From Escherichia phage KIT06, in the sequence record OQ349392.1: DNA of 64,000 nt; one strand, written 5' to 3'. Positions 31,028-64,000 of the stretch are shown piece after piece. The notes beneath the pieces are model-generated. The model had not been told where the DNA came from. It saw only the letters and a list, made by a program, of their open reading frames with translations, and made no database searches. The position numbers and the translations under genes were made by a program. Within the stretch, counting starts at the first letter, position 1, and each line of letters starts with the position of its first letter.

Positions 31028-31051
31028 TGCTTCAGTTTTGTGTGTTATAAT
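31028..31051 (+). promoter_or_regulatory. candidate MotA-dependent middle promoter for gene 1
   Basis: MotA-box-like aTGCTTCA at 31028-31034 followed 11 nt later by TATAAT at 31046-31051, upstream of the gene 1 ATG (31077). Confidence 0.5.
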
Positions 31052-31076
31052 CTTAACTAAATTTGAGGAGAAACAT

Positions 31077-31789
31077 ATGAAACTAATCTTTTTAAGTGGT
31101 GTAAAGCGTAGTGGAAAAGATACTACTGCAGATTTTATCATGAATAATTATTCTGCAGTTAAATATCAACTTGCTGGTCCTATTAAGGATGCATTGGCTT
31201 ATGCATGGGGCGTATTTGCAGCAAACACTGACTATCCTTGTTTAACTCGTAAAGAGTTTGAAGGAATTGACTATGATCGCGAGACTAATTTAAATCTGAC
31301 TAAATTAGAAGTAATTACGATTATGGAACAAGCATTTTGCTATCTTAATAGTAAAAGCCCAATTAAAGGTGTGTTTGTTTTTGATGACGCAGTTAATTTC
31401 GTAGCATTTAACAAGATTGCTGACGTTATAAATAATATTGAAGATCAATGGTCAGTCCGTCGTCTGATGCAAGCCCTAGGTACGGATTTGATTGTTAATA
31501 ACTTCGACCGCATGTATTGGGTAAAATTATTTGCTTTAGATTATCTTGATAAATTTAACTCAGGTTATGATTATTATATCGTTCCTGATACTCGTCAAGA
31601 TCATGAAATGGATGCGGCTAGGGCGATGGGTGCTACAGTAATTCATGTAGTTCGTCCTGGTCAAAAATCCAATGATACTCATATTACAGAAGCTGGATTG
31701 CCAATTCGTGATGGTGATTTAGTAATTACAAACGATGGTTCTCTTGAAGAACTTTTTTCTAAAATTAAAAATACACTAAAGGTACTATA

Positions 31790-31790
<1 letters not shown>
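31077..31790 (+). CDS. 1: deoxynucleoside monophosphate kinase
   Basis: Track ORF 31038..31790; ATG at 31077 preceded by GAGGAG; P-loop at the N-terminus (MKLIFLSGVKRSGKDT). Confidence 0.9.
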
Positions 31791-32487
<697 letters not shown>

Positions 32488-32498
32488 TTTCACAAAGT

Positions 32499-32530
32499 TG
32501 TTTACACGCTGATGAGGTAGTGATACTATT
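32499..32530 (+). promoter_or_regulatory. early promoter plus stem-loop module (PeSL-like) upstream of ipI
   Basis: GTTTAC -35 at 32499-32504, gtGATACTAT -10 region, inverted repeat gatgag/ctcatc around the -10. Confidence 0.6.
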
Positions 32531-32559
32531 ATCTCATCAAAATTAATTAGGAAAATAAA

Positions 32560-32847
32560 ATGAAAACTTTCAAAGAATTTACTTCTACAACTATCCCGGT
32601 TTCTACTATTACTGAAGCTACTCTTACTTCTGAAGTTATTAAAGCAAATAAAGGACGAGAAGGTAAACCAATGATTAGTTTGGTTGATGGCGAAGAAATC
32701 AAAGGTACTGTTTACCTAGGTGATGGGTGGTCTGCTAAAAAGGATGGTGCTACAATCATTATCTCTCCTGCTGAAGAAACTGCGTTGTTTAAAGCTAAAC
32801 ACATTTCTGCGGCACATCTCAAGATTATTGCTAAAAATCTTTTGTAA
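32560..32847 (+). CDS. ipI: internal protein I precursor (capsid-targeted; mature IPI* would be 76 aa)
   Basis: 95-aa ORF with capsid targeting sequence MKTFKEFTSTTIPVSTITE followed by ATLTSEVIKANKGREGKPMISLVDGEEIKG... Confidence 0.9.
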   Translation: MKTFKEFTSTTIPVSTITEATLTSEVIKANKGREGKPMISLVDGEEIKGTVYLGDGWSAKKDGATIIISPAEETALFKAKHISAAHLKIIAKNLL

Positions 32848-32865
32848 TAAATATTTCACAAAGTT

Positions 32866-32897
32866 GTTTACATAGGGTTTTAGTTGTGATACTATTA
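32866..32897 (+). promoter_or_regulatory. early promoter plus stem-loop module (PeSL-like)
   Basis: GTTTAC at 32866-32871; gtGATACTAT -10 region; inverted repeat tagggt/accctat. Confidence 0.6.
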
Positions 32898-32923
32898 CCC
32901 TATCAACTACTGAGGAGAATAAA

Positions 32924-33196
32924 ATGAAAACATTTAAAGAATTTATCAATGAAGCTACTTTTAACGAAAAAGTAAAAATTAGCAAAGCTGTCAAGACTAT
33001 GATTGATAACATCAATTACCTATATGGTATTGATTTAACTGACTATGTAACAGTTGGTAACAAACGTAACTATTTCGTGTTTGACATCTCTGAACTTGAC
33101 CAGAATCAAATTAACAACATTGAGCGTTTTGCTAATGATAAGGGTCTTCGTCATGAGTCAGCGGGTTATAAAAAATACGCAATTTATTTAAAATGA
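32924..33196 (+). CDS. internal-protein-like capsid-targeted protein (ip cassette 2)
   Basis: 90-aa ORF starting MKTFKEFINEA (CTS-like), own promoter module, unrelated body sequence. Confidence 0.7.
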   Translation: MKTFKEFINEATFNEKVKISKAVKTMIDNINYLYGIDLTDYVTVGNKRNYFVFDISELDQNQINNIERFANDKGLRHESAGYKKYAIYLK

Positions 33197-33228
33197 GTTT
33201 ACTTTTAAATAGGGTTGTGGTACTATTA
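33197..33228 (+). promoter_or_regulatory. early promoter plus stem-loop module (PeSL-like)
   Basis: GTTTAC at 33197-33202; gtGGTACTAT -10 region; imperfect inverted repeat. Confidence 0.55.
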
Positions 33229-33256
33229 CCTTATCAAAATTAATTAGGAAAATAAA

Positions 33257-33565
33257 ATGAAAACTTACCAAGAATTTATCAATGAAGCGGCTGCACCAAA
33301 GACATTCATTATTTATACTCAAGCGGGTCTTGATGATGAGTATGCGGAAGCAATTCTGAGGTCACTTGCTAAGAACGGCGTTGAAGTAATCGCCTCGGAC
33401 TTTAAGAAAGGGGCTTCCGAGCTGTTTATTTCTATAACTAAAGGATCTAAAGCTAAAATCAAATCATCATTCGGAGTTGCTCGTACCGATCAAATCGACA
33501 ATCATGACTTTAAACAAACTGGTGCTAAACGGCAGAACACAATTGCATCACGCGGAATAAAATAG
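33257..33565 (+). CDS. internal-protein-like capsid-targeted protein (ip cassette 3)
   Basis: 102-aa ORF starting MKTYQEFINEAAAPK (CTS-like). Confidence 0.7.
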   Translation: MKTYQEFINEAAAPKTFIIYTQAGLDDEYAEAILRSLAKNGVEVIASDFKKGASELFISITKGSKAKIKSSFGVARTDQIDNHDFKQTGAKRQNTIASRGIK

Positions 33566-33575
33566 TTTATAAACC

Positions 33576-33607
33576 GTTTACTTTTAGATAGGGTAGTGAT
33601 ATTATTA
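33576..33607 (+). promoter_or_regulatory. early promoter plus stem-loop module (PeSL-like)
   Basis: GTTTAC at 33576-33581; gtGATATTAT -10 region; inverted repeat tagggta/taccctat. Confidence 0.55.
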
Positions 33608-33633
33608 CCCTATCAACTACTGAGGAGAATAAA

Positions 33634-33857
33634 ATGAAAACTTATCAAAAATTTATCGCTGAAGCTAAAAGACATGAAGATGAACTACCAATTGTTACGA
33701 AAACTTTTGATGGTACATTAAGTGATTTTAAAAAATTCCTAGCGATAAACTTTCTAAGTTAACTGGCTCTATTAGTGAAAAGGATGGTAAAGTCACGTTT
33801 TCTGCTCGTGGCACTGCTAATCTTAAAAAGCTTTTGAAAGCTGCTGGAGCGGAATAA
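33634..33857 (+). pseudogene. internal-protein-like cassette 4, frame broken in an A6 run
   Basis: ATG 33634 gives MKTYQKFIAEAKRHEDELPIVTKTFDGTLSDFKKFLAINFLS then stop at 33760; the -1 frame continues from the A-run (33730-33735) as IPSDKLSKLTGSISEKDGKVTFSARGTANLKKLLKAAGAE to 33857. Confidence 0.55.
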
Positions 33858-33860
33858 GTT

Positions 33861-33892
33861 GTTTACTTCTGGGTAGTAGTGTGATACTATTA
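33861..33892 (+). promoter_or_regulatory. early promoter plus stem-loop module (PeSL-like)
   Basis: GTTTAC at 33861-33866; gtGATACTAT; inverted repeat gggtag/taccc. Confidence 0.55.
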
Positions 33893-33918
33893 CCCTATCA
33901 ACTACTGAGGAGAATAAA

Positions 33919-34104
33919 ATGAAACGTTGTGAATTAATTCGAAATGTTGCTATTGCAATTTCTGCTTCCGCTTTTAGTTTTTCAATGTTTGTTGGATTTA
34001 TATGCGGATTATTGACTACAGCAGAAAATGTTTTTTCACTTGTAGTAGCATTTTTAATTGGTTTAATCGCTATTGTTATGGATAAAATTTCTAAAGGTGA
34101 ATAA
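33919..34104 (+). CDS. small two-helix membrane protein
   Basis: 61-aa ORF, two hydrophobic segments, SD gaggagaa upstream. Confidence 0.55.
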   Translation: MKRCELIRNVAIAISASAFSFSMFVGFICGLLTTAENVFSLVVAFLIGLIAIVMDKISKGE

Positions 34105-34509
34105 ATGAATATTAACGAATATTATGTTTATGCTGGGGATTATGCAAATCCTTCTCATTTTGAAGGTAATTTAATACCTGATAGAGTTTTTAATACTCCT
34201 TTTGAAGCGTGGAGTTGGGTTGAAAGTAAAAATGGATTTTCTTATCGTTATGTTGAAGTAACTGATTGGAAAGGAACTAAATATCCTAAAGAGCATTATT
34301 ATGTAGACCCATCTAAAGTAAATTTTCTTTTGTTCGCAGGCGATAATTACTATCCTTGCGGTGGATATGATGATTTGATTGCGTATGCTGAAACAGAAGA
34401 TGAATTACGCCAAATTATTGAAGACAATAAATCAAAACGATTTGGTGATAGTTTTGACTGGTGGCAAATCGTAAATGCCCATACACATACTATTGTTGAT
34501 AAAGGTTAA
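34105..34509 (+). CDS. hypothetical protein
   Basis: 134-aa ORF tightly packed after the previous stop; Tyr/Trp-rich; no family recognised. Confidence 0.6.
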   Translation: MNINEYYVYAGDYANPSHFEGNLIPDRVFNTPFEAWSWVESKNGFSYRYVEVTDWKGTKYPKEHYYVDPSKVNFLLFAGDNYYPCGGYDDLIAYAETEDELRQIIEDNKSKRFGDSFDWWQIVNAHTHTIVDKG

Positions 34510-34511
34510 TA

Positions 34512-34802
34512 ATGATTCTTTATGCGAAAGTATCATCCATTGAAAATGGATATAAATATGATCAAGATGCGGCTAAAGCCTTGATTGATGATTATGGCAT
34601 TTTAACATGTTTTGAAGTTGAAAAGGTTTACATTGACCGTTCATCTTCTCAAGTTAAATTAGTGAAGGAAGACCGTAAATTTAATACAGTAAATTTTGAT
34701 TTCTTTATTGAAACAGAAAAAGGTCCTCTTGAATATGATATTTTCAAGAATCCTTTGGGTCTTGAATGTATTAAATATACTTACATTAATGCAGCGTGGT
34801 GA
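34512..34802 (+). CDS. hypothetical protein
   Basis: 96-aa ORF, tight packing. Confidence 0.55.
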   Translation: MILYAKVSSIENGYKYDQDAAKALIDDYGILTCFEVEKVYIDRSSSQVKLVKEDRKFNTVNFDFFIETEKGPLEYDIFKNPLGLECIKYTYINAAW

Positions 34803-34804
34803 AA

Positions 34805-35320
34805 ATGAATATTTGTTTGGGTACTACAATTCCGCAGGGTTACGTAATTGATGTCACTACCTGGGAAAATGATGGTGACAACTATAAAACCAAAACACTG
34901 TTTGGCGTAGAAGAGCATGAAATCTTACAATTCCAATATCTTTTAAAGAAGTTTAAAAGCCGACATTCTAGTACTAAAATTGAGCACTATTGTGGTAATG
35001 CTTCGTTCAGTGAGCAATCGCTTTTTATCTATGAATACTTGGTTGAAGGACTGTTCTCAGACCAACTTTATCCAGAATTCATTAAAAAGGTCTTTGATAT
35101 AGAAGTTGACCTTGGTAATAAATCTGAAGAAGATGAAGAACGTGTATTTGACTTATTCTTTGTGAATGGTAATAAAGTGCTTGAAGGACTTATTAATATT
35201 TTAGGTAATGCTTCTGAGTATTATGATTATGATTTTTTGCGTGTAGTTGAGAGTGTTAAATACTCTTATATAGAAGAAGAAATTGTTTTGCCGACCGTTA
35301 AAATGTTTAATTTGCTTTAA
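34805..35320 (+). CDS. hypothetical protein
   Basis: Track ORF 34796..35320 (GTG); first ATG at 34805; about 171 aa. Confidence 0.55.
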   Translation: MNICLGTTIPQGYVIDVTTWENDGDNYKTKTLFGVEEHEILQFQYLLKKFKSRHSSTKIEHYCGNASFSEQSLFIYEYLVEGLFSDQLYPEFIKKVFDIEVDLGNKSEEDEERVFDLFFVNGNKVLEGLINILGNASEYYDYDFLRVVESVKYSYIEEEIVLPTVKMFNLL

Positions 35321-35406
35321 GAATTATTTGTTATTATTAACTCATATCGCATTGATTAATACCCTCTATCATCAAGGGTTCTTTCCTGAGAGCCTTTGTT
35401 AATAAT

Positions 35407-35479
35407 TGGGAATTAGCCAAGTTGGTAAGGCATAGCACTTTGACTGCTAGATGCAAAGGTTCGAGTCCTTTATTCCCAG
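35407..35479 (+). tRNA. tRNA-Gln (anticodon UUG)
   Basis: Cloverleaf folded by hand: acceptor tgggaat/attccca, anticodon loop ctTTGac, T-arm aaagg-ttcgagt-ccttt. Confidence 0.85.
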
Positions 35480-35480
35480 C

Positions 35481-35567
35481 GCGAGAATGGTCAAATTGGT
35501 AAAGGCACAGCACTTAAAATGCTGCGGAATGATTTCCTTGTGGGTTCGAGTCCCACTTCTCGCACCA
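35481..35567 (+). tRNA. tRNA-Leu (anticodon UAA), type II, CCA encoded
   Basis: Acceptor gcgagaa/ttctcgc, anticodon loop ctTAAaa, long variable arm. Confidence 0.85.
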
Positions 35568-35572
35568 AATTT

Positions 35573-35647
<75 letters not shown>

Positions 35648-35657
35648 ATTTAATTTA

Positions 35658-35731
35658 CTCCGTGTAGCTCAGTTTGGTAGAGCGTCTGCTTTGGGAGCAG
35701 AATGTCGCAGGTTCAAATCCTGCCGCGGAGA
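35658..35731 (+). tRNA. tRNA-Pro (anticodon UGG)
   Basis: Acceptor ctccgtg/cgcggag, anticodon loop ttTGGga, T-loop ttcaaat. Confidence 0.8.
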
Positions 35732-35733
35732 CT

Positions 35734-35823
35734 GGAGGCGTGGCAGAGTGGTTTAATGCACCGGTCTTGAAAACCGGCAGTCGCTCCGGCGACTCATAGG
35801 TTCAAATCCTATCGCCTCCGCCA
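35734..35823 (+). tRNA. tRNA-Ser (anticodon UGA), type II
   Basis: Acceptor ggaggcg/cgcctcc, anticodon loop ctTGAaa, long variable arm. Confidence 0.85.
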
Positions 35824-35828
35824 GTTTT

Positions 35829-35904
35829 GCTGATTTAGCTCAGTAGGTAGAGCAACTCACTTGTAATGAGAAGGTCGGCGGTTCGATTCCGTCAATCAGC
35901 ACCA
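35829..35904 (+). tRNA. tRNA-Thr (anticodon UGU)
   Basis: Acceptor gctgatt/aatcagc, anticodon loop ctTGTaa. Confidence 0.85.
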
Positions 35905-35905
35905 A

Positions 35906-35980
35906 GGCCCTGTAGCTGGAAGGTTCAAGCAAGCGACTCATAATCGCCAGATGGTGGTTCAATTCCACCCAGGGCCACCA
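35906..35980 (+). tRNA. tRNA with anticodon CAU (Ile by lysidine modification as in T4, or Met)
   Basis: Acceptor ggccctg/cagggcc, anticodon loop ctCATaa. Confidence 0.8.
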
Positions 35981-35989
35981 AATTAATTT

Positions 35990-36076
35990 GGGGAGTTATC
36001 CCGTAGAGGTAGCGGTGTGGACTGTAAATCCATTGTCATTGCGACTCGGGTGGTTCGACTCCATCACTCCCCACCA
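35990..36076 (+). tRNA. tRNA-Tyr (anticodon GUA), type II
   Basis: Acceptor ggggagt/actcccc, anticodon stem gtgga/tccat, loop ctGTAaa, long variable arm, T-loop ttcgact. Confidence 0.7.
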
Positions 36077-36080
36077 ATTT

Positions 36081-36155
36081 GGATGTGTAGCTCAATGGCA
36101 GAGCGATCGCCTGTTAAGCGATTGGTTATAGGTTCGAATCCTATCACGTCCGCCA
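36081..36155 (+). tRNA. tRNA-Asn (anticodon GUU)
   Basis: Acceptor ggatgtg/cacgtcc, anticodon stem atcgc/gcgat, loop ctGTTaa, T-loop ttcgaat. Confidence 0.75.
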
Positions 36156-36159
36156 AATC

Positions 36160-36235
36160 CGAGGCATAGCTCAGAAGGAAGAGCAAGGACCTTCTAAGTC
36201 CTAGGTCGTAGGTTCGATCCCTATTGCCTCGACCA
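36160..36235 (+). tRNA. tRNA-Arg (anticodon UCU)
   Basis: Acceptor cgaggca/tgcctcg, anticodon stem aggac/gtcct, loop ctTCTaa. Confidence 0.85.
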
Positions 36236-36251
36236 ATTAAGTGAGGAAAAT

Positions 36252-36602
36252 ATGAAAGGTAATGTTTATTTAGTAGTTCATGGTTTAACATTCTATTTTA
36301 ATCACAATGACACTGTTATTTCTGAACGTGTAATTAATTTACTTTATCAGCATGCAGATTATGTTTATGTCGAAAACGAATACGGTCATTGGCAATTTCT
36401 CAAAAATCGTTCATTTGGTTTAGATGGTTACGAATACTTTGAACGTAAAGACCTTTTAGATAAAATTCCATTATCTACACAATATCAAAATCACAAGTCT
36501 TTATATAAATGCCGTCCAATTCGAAATGCTGAATCTGCGTATGAAGTAATTGATTTATGGCGTAAACGTCGTGGACAGGTTGATGCTTTAAAAGAATATT
36601 AA
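36252..36602 (+). CDS. hypothetical protein between tRNA-Arg and the structured RNA region
   Basis: 116-aa ORF with SD gtgaggaaaat upstream of the ATG. Confidence 0.6.
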   Translation: MKGNVYLVVHGLTFYFNHNDTVISERVINLLYQHADYVYVENEYGHWQFLKNRSFGLDGYEYFERKDLLDKIPLSTQYQNHKSLYKCRPIRNAESAYEVIDLWRKRRGQVDALKEY

Positions 36603-36913
36603 GAAACCGGGTCGCTACCGGTAAGTCGTCGGACTGATGTTCCCTGGGTAAGGACTGGCATTAACAAATCTTTACGATCTGTTAATGTCCCCTTACATCA
36701 CAGCAGAAACGGCGCACCGAATTATCGATTCGAGGAAATATCTTTGCCGTAAGCCGAGTAGCGTTTTTGACGGAACGTTCGGATATGGTCGAGATATGGC
36801 CTTTTAAAAATATTGAGTAGCGTCAACTACTCAATAACCGGGTTCGAATCCCGGCGTTTCGTACAAACACTTGCCTTAGCAGGTGGAACCCCGACAAGGT
36901 TGCCGCAAGGCTT
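36603..36913 (+). ncRNA. structured non-coding RNA region, candidate T4 species 1/2-like stable RNAs, with a tRNA-like T-arm
   Basis: About 310 nt without an ORF, GC-richer than surroundings, multiple hairpins, tRNA-like element ttgagtag-cgtcaa-ctactcaa followed by ccggg-ttcgaat-cccgg; ends at a strong terminator. Confidence 0.4.
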
Positions 36914-61073: not shown

Positions 61074-61547
61074 ATGTTATTGACTGGCAAATTATACAAA
61101 GAAGAAAAACAAAAATTTTATGATGCACAAAACGGTAAATGCTTAATTTGCCAACGAGAACTAAATCCTGATGTTCAAGCTAATCACCTTGACCATGACC
61201 ATGAATTAAATGGACCAAAAGCAGGAAAGGTACGTGGGTTGCTATGTAATCTCTGTAATGCTGCAGAAGGTCAAATGAAGCATAAATTCAATCGTTCTGG
61301 CTTAAAGGGACAAGGTGTTGATTATCTTGAATGGCTAGAAAATTTACTTACTTATTTAAAATCCGATTACACCCAAAATAATATTCACCCTAACTTCGTT
61401 GGAGATAAATCAAAGGAATTTTCTCGTTTAGGAAAAGAGGAAATGATGGCTGAGATGCTTCAAAGAGGATTTGAATATAATGAATCTGACACTAAAACAC
61501 AATTAATAGCTTCATTTAAGAAGCAGCTTAGAAAGAGTTTAAAATGA
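61074..61547 (+). CDS. 49: endonuclease VII (Holliday junction resolvase)
   Basis: 157-aa ORF; CxxC...HLDHDH...CNLCN zinc and active-site motifs; size matches T4 gp49. Confidence 0.88.
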   Translation: MLLTGKLYKEEKQKFYDAQNGKCLICQRELNPDVQANHLDHDHELNGPKAGKVRGLLCNLCNAAEGQMKHKFNRSGLKGQGVDYLEWLENLLTYLKSDYTQNNIHPNFVGDKSKEFSRLGKEEMMAEMLQRGFEYNESDTKTQLIASFKKQLRKSLK

Positions 61548-63361
61548 CAATTGAAAAAGAAATTGAAGGATTGATTCATAAAACTAATAAAGACCTTTTA
61601 AACGAGAATGCTAATAAAGATTCTCGTGTTTTTCCAACTCAACGGGACCTTATGGCTGGTATTGTGTCTAAACACATTGCCAAAAATATGGTCCCGTCTT
61701 TTATTATGAAAGCGCATGAAAGCGGAATTATTCATTTCCATGATATTGATTATTCCCCTGCTCTTCCATTTACTAATTGCTGTTTAGTAGATTTAAAAGG
61801 AATGCTTGAGAACGGATTTAAGCTCGGTAATGCACAGATTGAAACTCCTAAATCAATCGGTGTTGCTACTGCAATTATGGCACAAATTACTGCACAGGTT
61901 GCTTCCCATCAATATGGTGGAACGACTTTTGCGAATGTAGATAAAGTACTTTCTCCTTATGTTAAACGCACCTATGCAAAACATATTGAGGACGCAGAAA
62001 AATGGCAAATCGCTGATGCGTTGAATTATGCCCAATCTAAAACAGAAAAAGATGTATACGATGCATTCCAAGCTTATGAATACGAAGTAAATACTCTCTT
62101 TAGTTCAAACGGACAAACGCCTTTTGTAACAATTACATTTGGTACGGGAACTGACTGGACTGAACGAATGATTCAGAAAGCAATTCTGAAAAATCGTATT
62201 AAAGGCCTTGGTCGCGACGGGATAACTCCTATTTTCCCTAAACTTGTTATGTTCGTTGAAGAAGGTGTTAATCTTTATAAAGACGATCCGAACTATGATA
62301 TTAAGCAGCTTGCTCTAGAATGTGCAAGTAAAAGAATGTATCCTGACATCATTTCGGCTAAGAACAATAAAGCTATCACCGGTTCATCTATTCCTGTTTC
62401 TCCAATGGGTTGTCGTAGTTTCTTGGGTGTATGGAAAGATTCGACTGGTAATGAAATTCTTGATGGACGTAATAATCTTGGTGTTGTAACACTGAATCTT
62501 CCTCGCATTGCACTAGATTCTTATATTGGAACACAGTTCAATGAACAGAAATTTGCCGAATTGTTCAATGAGAGAATGGATTTATGTTTTGAAGCATTGA
62601 TGTGTAGAATTAGTTCATTAAAAGGAGTTAAAGCTACTGTTGCTCCTATTCTTTACCAAGAAGGTGCATTCGGGGTTCGTCTTAAACCTGATGACGATAT
62701 AATTGAGTTATTTAAAAACGGTAGAAGTTCAGTGTCTTTGGGATACATTGGTATTCACGAATTGAATATTCTTGTCGGTCGTGATATTGGACAAGAAATT
62801 TTAACTAAAATGAATGCTCATCTTAAGCAGTGGACTGAAAGAACTGGTTTTGCTTTTAGTTTGTATTCGACACCTGCTGAAAACCTGTGCTATCGCTTCT
62901 GTAAACTTGATACCGAAAAATATGGAAGTGTAAAAGATGTTACCGATAAAGGCTGGTACACTAACAGTTTCCACGTTTCAGTAGAAGAAAATATCACTCC
63001 GTTTGAAAAGATTTCTCGTGAAGCACCATATCATTTCATTGCGACAGGTGGTCACATTTCTTATGTTGAACTTCCTGATATGAAAAATAACCTAAAAGGT
63101 CTTGAGGCTGTATGGGATTATGCTGCGCAACATTTAGATTATTTTGGCGTTAACATGCCAGTAGATAAATGTTTTACGTGTGGAAGTACCCATGAAATGA
63201 CTCCTACTGAAAACGGATTTGTTTGTTCTATTTGTGGAGAAACTGATCCTAAAAAGATGAACACAATAAGAAGAACATGCGGATATCTTGGAACTCCTAG
63301 CGTTGTTCCATGGAATTTAGGTAAAATGAAAGAAATGGTAAAACGAGTAAAACATGCATAG
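61544..63361 (+). CDS. nrdD: anaerobic ribonucleoside-triphosphate reductase NrdD, uninterrupted
   Basis: 605-aa continuous ORF; C-terminal Zn-ribbon (CFTCGSTHE...CSICGETD) and glycyl-radical motif RRTCGYLG; ATGA overlap with gene 49. Confidence 0.95.
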   Translation: MTIEKEIEGLIHKTNKDLLNENANKDSRVFPTQRDLMAGIVSKHIAKNMVPSFIMKAHESGIIHFHDIDYSPALPFTNCCLVDLKGMLENGFKLGNAQIETPKSIGVATAIMAQITAQVASHQYGGTTFANVDKVLSPYVKRTYAKHIEDAEKWQIADALNYAQSKTEKDVYDAFQAYEYEVNTLFSSNGQTPFVTITFGTGTDWTERMIQKAILKNRIKGLGRDGITPIFPKLVMFVEEGVNLYKDDPNYDIKQLALECASKRMYPDIISAKNNKAITGSSIPVSPMGCRSFLGVWKDSTGNEILDGRNNLGVVTLNLPRIALDSYIGTQFNEQKFAELFNERMDLCFEALMCRISSLKGVKATVAPILYQEGAFGVRLKPDDDIIELFKNGRSSVSLGYIGIHELNILVGRDIGQEILTKMNAHLKQWTERTGFAFSLYSTPAENLCYRFCKLDTEKYGSVKDVTDKGWYTNSFHVSVEENITPFEKISREAPYHFIATGGHISYVELPDMKNNLKGLEAVWDYAAQHLDYFGVNMPVDKCFTCGSTHEMTPTENGFVCSICGETDPKKMNTIRRTCGYLGTPSVVPWNLGKMKEMVKRVKHA

Positions 63362-64000
63362 GTATTATATAATTTATAAAATAACAAATATAATTAATTC
63401 AAAGGAATATATCGGTGCGCATAGCACCGATAACATAAATGACGGTTATATGGGGTCAGGAACATTGATTCGTGCCGCTTTATTAAAATATGGTAGAAAA
63501 AATTTTAATAAAGAAATTTTACATGTTTTTGATAATGAAAAACAAATGTATGATAAAGAAGCTGAACTCGTAACCGAAGAGTATTGTCTAAAAGAAAATA
63601 CATATAATATTAAACCTGGTGGAAAAGGTGGAACTGCCTATGAACAGACACTTGAACATCGCCGCAAAAATAGTTTAGCAAATAAAGGTAAAAAGAGAAC
63701 AGAAGAAACTAAAATAGCTATTTCACGTGCTTTAAAGAAATATAAACGTACGCCAGAGCATCAAGCAAATTTAAATAAAGCCGTAAGCATAGCTATGAAG
63801 CGAAAAGATGTTAGAAGTAAATTAGCTGGAGAGCGGTCTGAGAAAGATAAATTATCTATATCAAACGGTGTTAAAAAATATTACAATTCTTTGAGTGAAG
63901 AAGAACGCGAACTTCATCGCAAGCGAATTATTGAAGGTAAAAAGAATTCTCCCATGTCATTGGAATCTAGACAAAAGCTTTCAAAAGCTTTAAAAGGACT
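63354..64000 (+). mobile_element. GIY-YIG homing endonuclease gene (free-standing, Seg/I-Tev-like), 3' end beyond the window
   Basis: Translated by hand from ATG 63354, overlapping the nrdD stop: MHRYYIIYKITNIINSKEYIGAHS... (GIY-x10-YIG), conserved R and E, then repeated basic NUMOD3-like segments; at least 215 aa with no stop before the window end. Confidence 0.8.

What the first reader, a model, noticed from the sequence alone, without database searches (positions are those of the whole stretch)
33919..35320. Four-gene block of unknown function between the ip cassettes and the tRNA array, at the position where T4 carries segB
As I recall T4, this interval holds the segB homing endonuclease. 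Here no GIY-YIG ORF is present; instead there are four tightly packed ORFs (61, 134, 96 and about 171 aa) with no recognisable domains, the first a two-helix membrane peptide. Position in a hyperplastic region next to injected-protein genes makes them candidates for host-takeover or counter-defence functions.
Basis: inference. Interest (0 to 1): 0.5.

Follow-up and report, generated by a model that had tools for sequence, protein, structure and literature searches.

The report
T4 trna.4–trna.2 early genes plus one
The four small genes are not a replacement for T4's segB but T4's own long-annotated genes trna.4, trna.3 and trna.2, plus a widespread phage gene that T4 has lost by deletion; all are real, expressed early and of unknown function, so the finding is largely ordinary.

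Summary
The four ORFs exist as described (61, 134, 96 and 171 aa). The premise is wrong. In T4, segB lies inside the tRNA array, between tRNA-Ile and tRNA-Arg. The ipI-to-tRNA-Gln interval in T4 holds trna.4, trna.3 and trna.2.

ORF1, ORF2 and ORF3 are 100%, 85% and 92% identical to those three T4 proteins. ORF4 is 96% identical to RB32ORF135c. It belongs to a family of more than 1000 phage proteins, and T4 lost it by a clean deletion.

ORF1–3 occur in as many phage records (760–798) as the core gene 57A (759). ORF4 is polymorphic (573 records).

The block is one translationally coupled early operon. A PeSL-type early promoter lies upstream (33861–33890), and the operon reads into the tRNA array. 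All four genes are under purifying selection. The three T4 genes are transcribed early (Trna.2 and Trna.3 also detected as early proteins) and are dispensable in the laboratory.

No sequence or fold search gives a function. The best inference is accessory host-interaction or counter-defence factors. Supporting points are the neighbours Acb1 and IPI, and the co-purification of Trna.2 with the defence protein DRT1. This remains unproven.

One open lead: ORF4 has a confident model with no structural neighbour in the PDB, an invariant WENDGD motif, and a recurrent position next to tRNA genes.

The parts
33861..33890 (+). T4-type early promoter inside a PeSL-like repeated promoter/RBS cassette (GTTTACT...TGATACTAT), followed by the SD GAGGAG; drives the block
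   Evidence: The pattern GTTTACW-N14-17-TGNTANNAT gives 14 hits in the window against 0.03 expected, all on the + strand, and one lies here. The cassette is repeated five times across 32487-33901, in front of the three intact ip genes, the frameshifted ip gene and ORF1.
33919..34104 (+). ORF1 = trna.4; 61-aa two-helix membrane protein
   Evidence: 100% identical to T4 Trna.4. PHROG 1692, E = 6e-35. Found in 779 phage records, 428 of them at 99% identity or more. Zero non-synonymous changes against dS of 0.13-0.16 versus T4 and RB32. Two hydrophobic stretches.
34105..34509 (+). ORF2 = trna.3; 134-aa acidic protein with a variable N-half and a conserved C-half carrying an invariant GDNYYPxGGYxD loop
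34512..34802 (+). ORF3 = trna.2; 96-aa acidic protein
   Evidence: 92% identical to T4 Trna.2. PHROG 2023. Found in 798 phage records. Only 19 cluster representatives among 1.84 billion proteins. T4 Trna.2 is enriched with DRT1.
34805..35320 (+). ORF4 = RB32ORF135c/PHROG 2290 family; 171-aa strongly acidic protein with an invariant WENDGD motif; absent from T4
35313..35337 (+). MotA-box middle-promoter-like site (TGCTTTA, 12 nt, TATTAT) overlapping the ORF4 stop codon, ahead of tRNA-Gln
   Evidence: Pattern match: 9 hits in the window against 2.2 expected. The sequence is conserved in T4 and RB32.
35407..36235 (+). Array of ten tRNA genes (Gln, Leu, Gly, Pro, Ser, Thr, Met, Tyr, Asn, Arg) downstream of the block, with no terminator-like site between
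   Evidence: ARAGORN, Rfam, no + strand terminator.

Best explanation
The interval is the conserved T-even 'tRNA-leader' early operon: trna.4, trna.3, trna.2 and a fourth gene of the RB32ORF135c/PHROG 2290 family that T4 itself has deleted. A PeSL-type early promoter at 33861-33890 starts transcription. The four cistrons are translationally coupled, and transcription can run on into the tRNA array, which also has its own MotA-type promoter overlapping the ORF4 stop codon. The products are one strictly conserved two-helix membrane peptide and three small acidic cytoplasmic proteins with no detectable relatives of known function. Gene identity and operon layout are shown by the data. The function is inferred: these are non-essential accessory factors made in the first minutes of infection, which bind host or defence components rather than serve a core phage process. 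Trna.2 is the member with a physical link to a defence protein, DRT1.
For: Identity. ORF1, ORF2 and ORF3 are 100%, 85% and 92% identical to T4 Trna.4, Trna.3 and Trna.2, and ORF4 is 96% identical to RB32ORF135c. The T4 and RB32 annotations show the same order between the ip genes and tRNA-Gln.

Real genes. dN/dS is 0-0.28.

Operon. An early promoter pattern lies at 33861-33890. Stop and start codons abut or lie 2 nt apart. No promoter of that type and no + strand terminator lies inside the block. A MotA-box site lies at 35313-35337.

Expression. In T4, trna.2 and trna.3 give early RNA and early protein, and trna.4 gives early RNA (PMC9697503 supplement).

Dispensability. All three T4 genes are scored 'Not Fit' in the T4 CRISPRi-ART screen, meaning knock-down did not impair the phage (PMC11879866 supplement).

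Counter-defence context. The upstream gene 57B is Acb1 (Pfam E = 7.8e-60). ipI matches IPI_T4 (E = 2e-53).

Physical link. Inh and Trna.2 were the only T4 proteins enriched with wild-type DRT1 over an RT-dead control (PMC13275509).

Variation typical of accessory genes. Trna.3 alleles are mosaic, and ORF4 is present or absent among close relatives.
Against: No function has been shown for any of the four proteins. The DRT1 authors did not follow up Trna.2, and enrichment could be indirect. Near-universal conservation of ORF1-3 and the absolute amino-acid conservation of Trna.4 are unusual for arms-race genes. They fit a conserved host or phage partner equally well. ORF4's invariant polar residues (W20, E21, N22, D23, D25, N65, Y140, R146) look more like a ligand-binding or catalytic site than a plain protein-binding surface. 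The proximity of the ORF4 and Trna.2 families to tRNA genes in unrelated jumbo phages hints at a tRNA-related role instead. Guilt by association in a hyperplastic region is weak evidence.
Confidence: 0.6

Rival explanations
1. The genes, ORF4 and Trna.2 in particular, serve the neighbouring tRNA genes. They might help to process, modify or protect phage tRNAs, or act as decoys or inhibitors of host tRNA-targeting defences such as anticodon nucleases.
For: ORF4 ends 86 nt before tRNA-Gln. Of 33 full-length ORF4 homologues in IMG/VR contigs, 22 lie within 2.1 kb of a tRNA gene. Several annotated phages have one within 150 nt. One of these is the jumbo phage K64-1, which is not a Straboviridae member. 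Its tRNA-Leu is not closely related to the one here, which argues against recent transfer of the whole segment. A Trna.2 homologue (E = 1.3e-29) sits inside the tRNA array of the jumbo Erwinia phage Kaldavass. The block is co-transcribed with the tRNAs.
Against: All ORF4 family members are strongly acidic, with net charge -10 to -27, which makes direct RNA binding unlikely. T4 and, on a rough sample, roughly two-thirds of Tequatrovirus records lack ORF4 yet keep the tRNA array. Aeromonas Ceceduovirus-type contigs and several other contigs carry a homologue with no tRNA gene within the DNA held, up to 10 kb on each side. Most of the association lies within one syntenic family, so independent observations are few. 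No RNA-binding or RNA-enzyme fold was found.
Confidence: 0.2
2. The block is mostly hitch-hiking cargo. These are small ORFs of marginal benefit, kept and spread because they sit in a recombination hotspot. That hotspot has PeSL cassettes upstream and, downstream, tRNA genes targeted by homing endonucleases such as SegB.
For: Five repeated PeSL-type cassettes end exactly at ORF1. PeSLs are documented to mediate modular shuffling (PMC2839356, PMC4122927). SegB homing co-converts flanking ORFs in the tRNA region (PMC2330249). ORF4 is polymorphic with a single shared deletion junction. Trna.3 is recombinationally mosaic. The three T4 genes are dispensable in the laboratory.
Against: All four genes are under purifying selection, with dN/dS of 0-0.28. 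Trna.4 has zero amino-acid changes against dS of about 0.15. ORF1-3 are as widespread as a core gene. Their order is kept in genera at 40-55% identity. The ORF4 family has more than 1000 members with invariant residues.
Confidence: 0.1
3. One reading: a novel four-gene cassette has replaced the segB homing endonuclease at this position in this phage.
For: No GIY-YIG ORF lies in the interval. This phage also lacks segB in its tRNA array.
Against: T4 segB lies between tRNA-Ile and tRNA-Arg, not here. T4 has trna.4, trna.3 and trna.2 in this interval. RB32 has all four genes and segB together. The segB-free array with Met, Tyr, Asn and Arg tRNAs matches the T2L type already described (PMC2330249).
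Confidence: 0.02

Closest known systems
Bacteriophage T4 genes trna.4, trna.3 and trna.2 (UniProt P13322, P13323, P13324; 'uncharacterized proteins in segB-ipI intergenic region')
   Same: Same position between the ip genes and tRNA-Gln, same order, same lengths, and 100%, 85% and 92% amino-acid identity.
   Different: Trna.3 here carries a C-terminal half from another allele lineage: dS to T4 is 0.46 in that half against 0.13 in the N-half. Here the block is preceded by extra ip cassettes rather than directly by ipI.
RB32ORF135c / RB69ORF151c / 44RRORF127c family (PHROG 2290)
   Same: ORF4 is 96% identical to RB32ORF135c and occupies the same position, after trna.2 and before tRNA-Gln. The family motifs WENDGD, GN, Y and R are present.
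   Different: Nothing notable. The family has no described function or solved structure.
T4 SegB GIY-YIG homing endonuclease
   Same: Only that it lies in the same general tRNA region of T-even genomes.
   Different: None of the four ORFs resembles it. Its true position is inside the tRNA array. This phage has the segB-free T2L-type array.
Neighbouring T4 counter-defence genes: Acb1 (gene 57B) and IPI
   Same: Same early, dispensable gene neighbourhood. All are small proteins in the same hyperplastic region, with PeSL-type promoters in front of the ip genes and ORF1.
   Different: No sequence or fold similarity. ORF1 lacks the capsid-targeting leader (MKTYQEF...) of the ip genes. No enzymatic domain comparable to the Acb1 domain was detected.

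Membership tests
T4 Trna.4 (PHROG 1692) | Protein of about 61 aa with two hydrophobic helices, encoded first after the ip genes; full-length sequence match | tested here: met
   100% identical to T4 Trna.4. PHROG 1692 E = 6e-35 over residues 1-61. Hydropathy.
T4 Trna.3 (PHROG 1411; PF26894 in the large database) | Protein of about 130 aa with a conserved C-half bearing NFLLFAGDNYYPxGGYxDL and WWQIVN; encoded after trna.4 | tested here: met
   85% identical to T4 Trna.3. PHROG 1411 E = 2.7e-50. The motifs are invariant in the alignment. Homologues carry PF26894. That model is absent from the local Pfam copy, so it was not scored directly.
T4 Trna.2 (PHROG 2023) | Protein of about 95 aa with the motifs NGY..D, GRSS(T/S), FNSVNF and EYDIF; encoded after trna.3 | tested here: met
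   92% identical to T4 Trna.2. PHROG 2023 E = 3.6e-48. Motifs shown.
RB32ORF135c family (PHROG 2290) | Acidic protein of about 145-185 aa with the N-terminal hairpin motif (S/T)WENDGD and a C-terminal Y...R(V)VE motif | tested here: met
   PHROG 2290 E = 1.5e-68. W20, E21, N22, D23 and R146 are invariant in 79 sequences. pI 4.5.
GIY-YIG homing endonucleases (SegB) | GIY-YIG catalytic domain, or similarity to SegB | tested here: not met
   No Pfam hit for any of the four ORFs. tblastn with T4 SegB finds nothing between 25.2 and 63.3 kb of the window.
T4 internal (injected) proteins | N-terminal capsid-targeting sequence MKT(F/Y)(K/Q)EFI..., cleaved by the prohead protease | tested here: not met
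   ORF1 shares the upstream promoter/RBS cassette and the first two codons, then diverges (MKRCELIRN...). ORF2-4 have no such leader.
Known anti-defence proteins (for example Acb1, IPI) | Sequence or fold match to a characterised inhibitor, or demonstrated inhibition of a defence system | tested here: inconclusive

The most novel reading that the evidence does not exclude
ORF4 (PHROG 2290) represents a large family of phage proteins that has escaped study because T4 deleted its copy. Its fold has no neighbour among solved structures, and it has an invariant acidic WENDGD/R/Y site. It travels with tRNA gene arrays in both T4-like and jumbo phages. Under this reading it works with the phage tRNAs, for example as an acidic mimic or inhibitor that neutralises a tRNA-targeting host defence, or as a binder of a conserved small ligand.
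Probability: 0.12. Interest if true: 0.6.

Novelty: already known. Interest (0 to 1): 0.25.

Why it matters
As flagged, the finding rests on a misremembered T4 map, and the genes are long-annotated conserved hypotheticals, so little is new.

The residual value is practical. Three near-universal early T-even genes, plus one gene missing from the model phage T4, still have no function. They sit between known counter-defence genes and the tRNA array. One of them now has a physical link to the DRT1 defence system. They are cheap, well-defined candidates for deletion and defence-panel screens. ORF4 would have to be studied in T2, T6, RB32 or this phage rather than in T4.

Tried and rejected
- **Domain and family searches.** All four proteins were run against Pfam, NCBIfam and PADLOC. 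Only sub-threshold noise came back. All 79 ORF4 homologues and the distant Trna.2 and Trna.3 homologues were also scanned against Pfam, with nothing found.
- **PDB sequence and profile searches** for ORF2-4 found nothing below E = 0.1.
- **Trna.2 and protein P0135.** The exhaustive search matched a 1225-aa NYN-plus-repeat protein at E = 1.9e-13. I rejected it. Each repeat scores only about 27 bits over 40 residues, the match misses most of the family motifs, and the total is inflated by seven repeats.
- **Trna.3 as an internal duplication.** The C-half profile does not significantly match the N-half.
- **Paralogy among ORF2, ORF3 and ORF4.** hhalign probabilities were below 1%.
- **A conserved Trna.2-ORF4 gene pair beyond the T-even group.** The small ORFs upstream of ORF4 homologues in Aeromonas and Cronobacter phages are unrelated to Trna.2.
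- **Recent transfer of ORF4 together with tRNA-Leu into K64-1.** The two tRNA sequences are not closely related.
- **Structured RNA in the block.** No Rfam family matched there.
- **Literature.** Searches for PF26894 and for the RB32, RB69 and 44RR locus names found nothing.

Full report
**What is there**

The window is a T4-like (Tequatrovirus) genome read on the strand opposite to the T4 reference. The region runs as follows:

| Feature | Coordinates | Note |
|---|---|---|
| gene 1 | 31038-31790 | |
| 57A | 31790-32032 | |
| 57B | 32032-32487 | Pfam Acb1, E = 7.8e-60 |
| ipI | 32560-32847 | Pfam IPI_T4, E = 2e-53 |
| two further ip genes | | |
| a frameshifted ip gene | | |
| the four flagged ORFs | | |
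| ten tRNA genes | 35407-36235 | |

The four ORFs are at 33919-34104 (61 aa), 34105-34509 (134 aa), 34512-34802 (96 aa) and 34805-35320 (171 aa). The mechanical ORF list starts the last one at GTG 34796. Its homologues are 171 aa and begin MNI..., so ATG 34805 is the real start. ORF1's stop codon abuts ORF2's ATG, and the other two junctions have 2-nt gaps.

**The premise is wrong**

In the T4 reference record, segB lies inside the tRNA array, between tRNA-Ile and tRNA-Arg. The interval between ipI and tRNA-Gln contains trna.4 (61 aa), trna.3 (136 aa) and trna.2 (95 aa). RB32 has tRNA.4, tRNA.3, tRNA.2 and RB32ORF135c (171 aa) in this interval, and it also has segB inside its array.

- ORF1 is 100% identical to T4 Trna.4.
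- ORF2 is 85% identical to Trna.3.
- ORF3 is 92% identical to Trna.2.
- ORF4 is 96% identical to RB32ORF135c.

tblastn with SegB finds nothing near the block. This phage does lack segB, but at the true segB site. Its array (Gln, Leu, Gly, Pro, Ser, Thr, Met, Tyr, Asn, Arg) resembles the segB-free T2L type described by Brok-Volchanskaya et al. (PMC2330249).

**T4 lost ORF4 by deletion**

The flanks of ORF4 align cleanly between this phage, RB32 and T4. At the site T4 keeps only ATG GTA AAT ATG CTT TAA, which joins the ORF4 start region to its last codons. The conserved tRNA leader follows. The same single-piece junction is common among Tequatrovirus records. ORF4 homologues occupy the equivalent position in other genera, so the ORF4-bearing state is probably ancestral.

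**Distribution**

Counts are tblastn hits against 50,697 phage records.

| Gene | Records | Note |
|---|---|---|
| ORF1 | 779 | 428 at 99% identity or more |
| ORF2 | 760 | 470 below 60% identity |
| ORF3 | 798 | |
| ORF4 | 573 | |
| 57A (core gene, for comparison) | 759 | |

ORF1-3 are therefore essentially universal in the T-even group. Their order, ending at the tRNA array, is kept in Dhakavirus, Marfavirus and Kanagawavirus at 40-55% identity.

ORF4 is found in only about 40% as many Escherichia phage records as ORF1-3 (229 against 511-543). It also occurs in Klebsiella, Enterobacter, Cronobacter and Aeromonas T4-likes and in jumbo phages such as K64-1 and PHA46. A profile search finds 1034 family members.

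**Real, constrained genes**

dN/dS against T4, RB32 and a Dhakavirus is 0-0.28 for all four ORFs. Trna.4 has no amino-acid change against dS of 0.13-0.16.

Trna.3 is an intragenic mosaic.

- Across alleles, the N-half averages 47% identity (minimum 21%) and the C-half 78%.
- Some alleles combine a foreign N-half with a C-half identical to the one here.
- Against T4, dS is 0.13 in the N-half and 0.46 in the C-half.

**Transcription layout**

The T4 early-promoter pattern GTTTAC(A/T)-N14-17-TGNTANNAT occurs 14 times in the window against 0.03 expected. All hits are on the + strand. One lies at 33861-33890, just upstream of ORF1.

That promoter is part of a cassette of about 54 nt holding promoter, stem-loop and RBS. 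The cassette is repeated five times across 32487-33901, in front of the three intact ip genes, the frameshifted ip gene and ORF1. This corresponds to the PeSL elements that mediate modular shuffling in T4-type phages (PMC2839356, PMC4122927).

No such promoter and no + strand terminator lies within the block. A MotA-box middle-promoter-like site (TGCTTTA, 12 nt, TATTAT) overlaps the ORF4 stop codon at 35313-35337 and is conserved in T4. The block therefore reads as one early operon that continues into the tRNA array, and the array has an additional promoter of its own. The promoter assignments are pattern matches, not mapped transcript ends.

**Published data on the T4 orthologues**

- trna.2 and trna.3 give early RNA and early protein, and trna.4 gives early RNA (PMC9697503 supplement).
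- All three are 'Not Fit' in the CRISPRi-ART screen, meaning knock-down did not impair the phage in the laboratory host (PMC11879866 supplement).
- In a pull-down of the defence reverse transcriptase DRT1 from T4-infected cells, only Inh and Trna.2 were enriched with wild-type DRT1 over an RT-dead control. The authors did not pursue this (PMC13275509).

**The proteins**

*ORF1.* It has two hydrophobic stretches joined by a conserved LLTTxEN turn, with charged ends.

*ORF2-4.* All three are acidic, with pI 4.5-4.8. No Pfam, NCBIfam, PADLOC or PDB sequence match was found. The PHROG families 1692, 1411, 2023 and 2290 are all of unknown function.

*Trna.3.*
- The AlphaFold model has pLDDT 77.5 and shows two small alpha/beta units.
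- The invariant YYPxGG loop is modelled with low confidence.
- A stand-alone 61-63 aa version of its C-terminal domain occurs between trna.4 and trna.3 in the Marfa and Kosakonia phages.

*Trna.2.* The family is small, with 19 cluster representatives among 1.84 billion proteins.

*ORF4.*
- It gives a confident model (pLDDT 92.4, pTM 0.86).
- The model has an N-terminal beta-hairpin with the invariant WENDGD at its turn, then five helices and a C-terminal strand preceded by invariant Y140 and R146.
- BFVD returns only uncharacterised phage proteins.
- All 79 sampled family members have net charge between -10 and -27.
- ORF2, ORF3 and ORF4 are not related to one another.

**A recurring tRNA neighbourhood**

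ORF4 homologues lie within about 2 kb of tRNA genes in 22 of 33 full-length IMG/VR loci. In several annotated phages they lie within 150 nt.

- One of these is the jumbo phage K64-1, where ARAGORN finds six unannotated tRNA genes just downstream.
- Its tRNA-Leu is not closely related to the one here, so a recent transfer of the whole segment is unlikely.
- A Trna.2 homologue lies inside the tRNA array of the jumbo Erwinia phage Kaldavass.

Against a functional link:
- Most cases fall within one syntenic family.
- Some lineages have a homologue with no tRNA gene in the flanking DNA held, up to 10 kb on each side.
- T4 does without ORF4.
- The proteins are too acidic to be likely RNA binders.

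Hitch-hiking in a recombination hotspot, between PeSL cassettes and tRNA genes targeted by homing endonucleases, is an adequate alternative.

**Verdict**

The block consists of three already annotated, near-universal T-even early genes plus a known polymorphic fourth gene.

The best-supported reading is an early accessory operon whose products act on host or defence components. Identity and layout are shown; the function is inferred. The rivals are a tRNA-linked role (about 0.2) and near-neutral cargo (about 0.1). Interest is low, at about 0.25. The one lead worth following is the ORF4 family.

Noticed in passing
window 33634-33858: An ip (internal protein) gene is split by a frameshift. The window has a run of six A at about 33730-33735, where the intact 74-aa homologue in IMG/VR contig L014 (8574-8798) has seven. 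It is either a pseudogene or a homopolymer sequencing error.
   Followed up: yes
window 32487-33901: There are five copies of a cassette of about 54 nt holding promoter, stem-loop and RBS (PeSL-like). They precede ipI, two further ip genes, the frameshifted ip gene and ORF1. This explains how ip genes are shuffled here while the four-gene block stays fixed.
   Followed up: partly
window 35407-36863: The tRNA array is the segB-free T2L type (Met, Tyr, Asn, Arg; no Ile). It is followed by a 116-aa ORF at 36252-36602 (PHROG 3355), which also appears to recur in the tRNA arrays of Klebsiella and Enterobacter phages, judged by eye from shared sequence motifs. After that come homologues of the T4 small RNAs rnaD (36602-36718, 88%) and rnaC (36725-36863, 99%).
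   Followed up: partly
window 63363-63632 (runs off the window end): A Seg-like GIY-YIG reading frame, 54% identical to the N-terminal 90 residues of T4 SegB, starts right after a 605-aa ORF that I take from memory to be nrdD (61544-63361). So the phage does carry seg-type homing endonuclease sequence, just not in the flagged region.
   Followed up: no
window 32032-32487: Gene 57B, labelled 'RNA ligase' in several public records, matches Pfam Acb1 (anti-CBASS nuclease) at E = 7.8e-60. The flagged block therefore lies about 1.4 kb downstream of a known counter-defence gene.
   Followed up: yes
L003 (Klebsiella phage K64-1) 3621-6098: ARAGORN finds six tRNA genes (Leu, Gly, Arg, Ser, Ser, Met) that the public record does not list as tRNA features, and several short annotated CDSs overlap them. 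They begin 141 nt after the ORF4 homologue.
   Followed up: partly
L071 3188-3373 (Klebsiella phage Marfa); L072 2205-2396 (Kosakonia phage 305): Proteins of 61-63 aa carrying the YYPxGG..D motif lie between trna.4 and trna.3. They look like stand-alone copies of the conserved C-terminal domain of Trna.3 (HMM E = 1e-3 and 7e-5). The domain also matches PHROGs 17649 and 4811.
   Followed up: partly
L005 3564-4013, L008 3843-4292, L072 3997-4458: In Klebsiella, Enterobacter and Kosakonia T4-likes, a gp30.3-family gene lies inside the tRNA array. Pfam Phage_30_3 scored E = 6e-56 for a clustered homologue. In the first two phages it lies next to or near the ORF4 homologue.
   Followed up: partly
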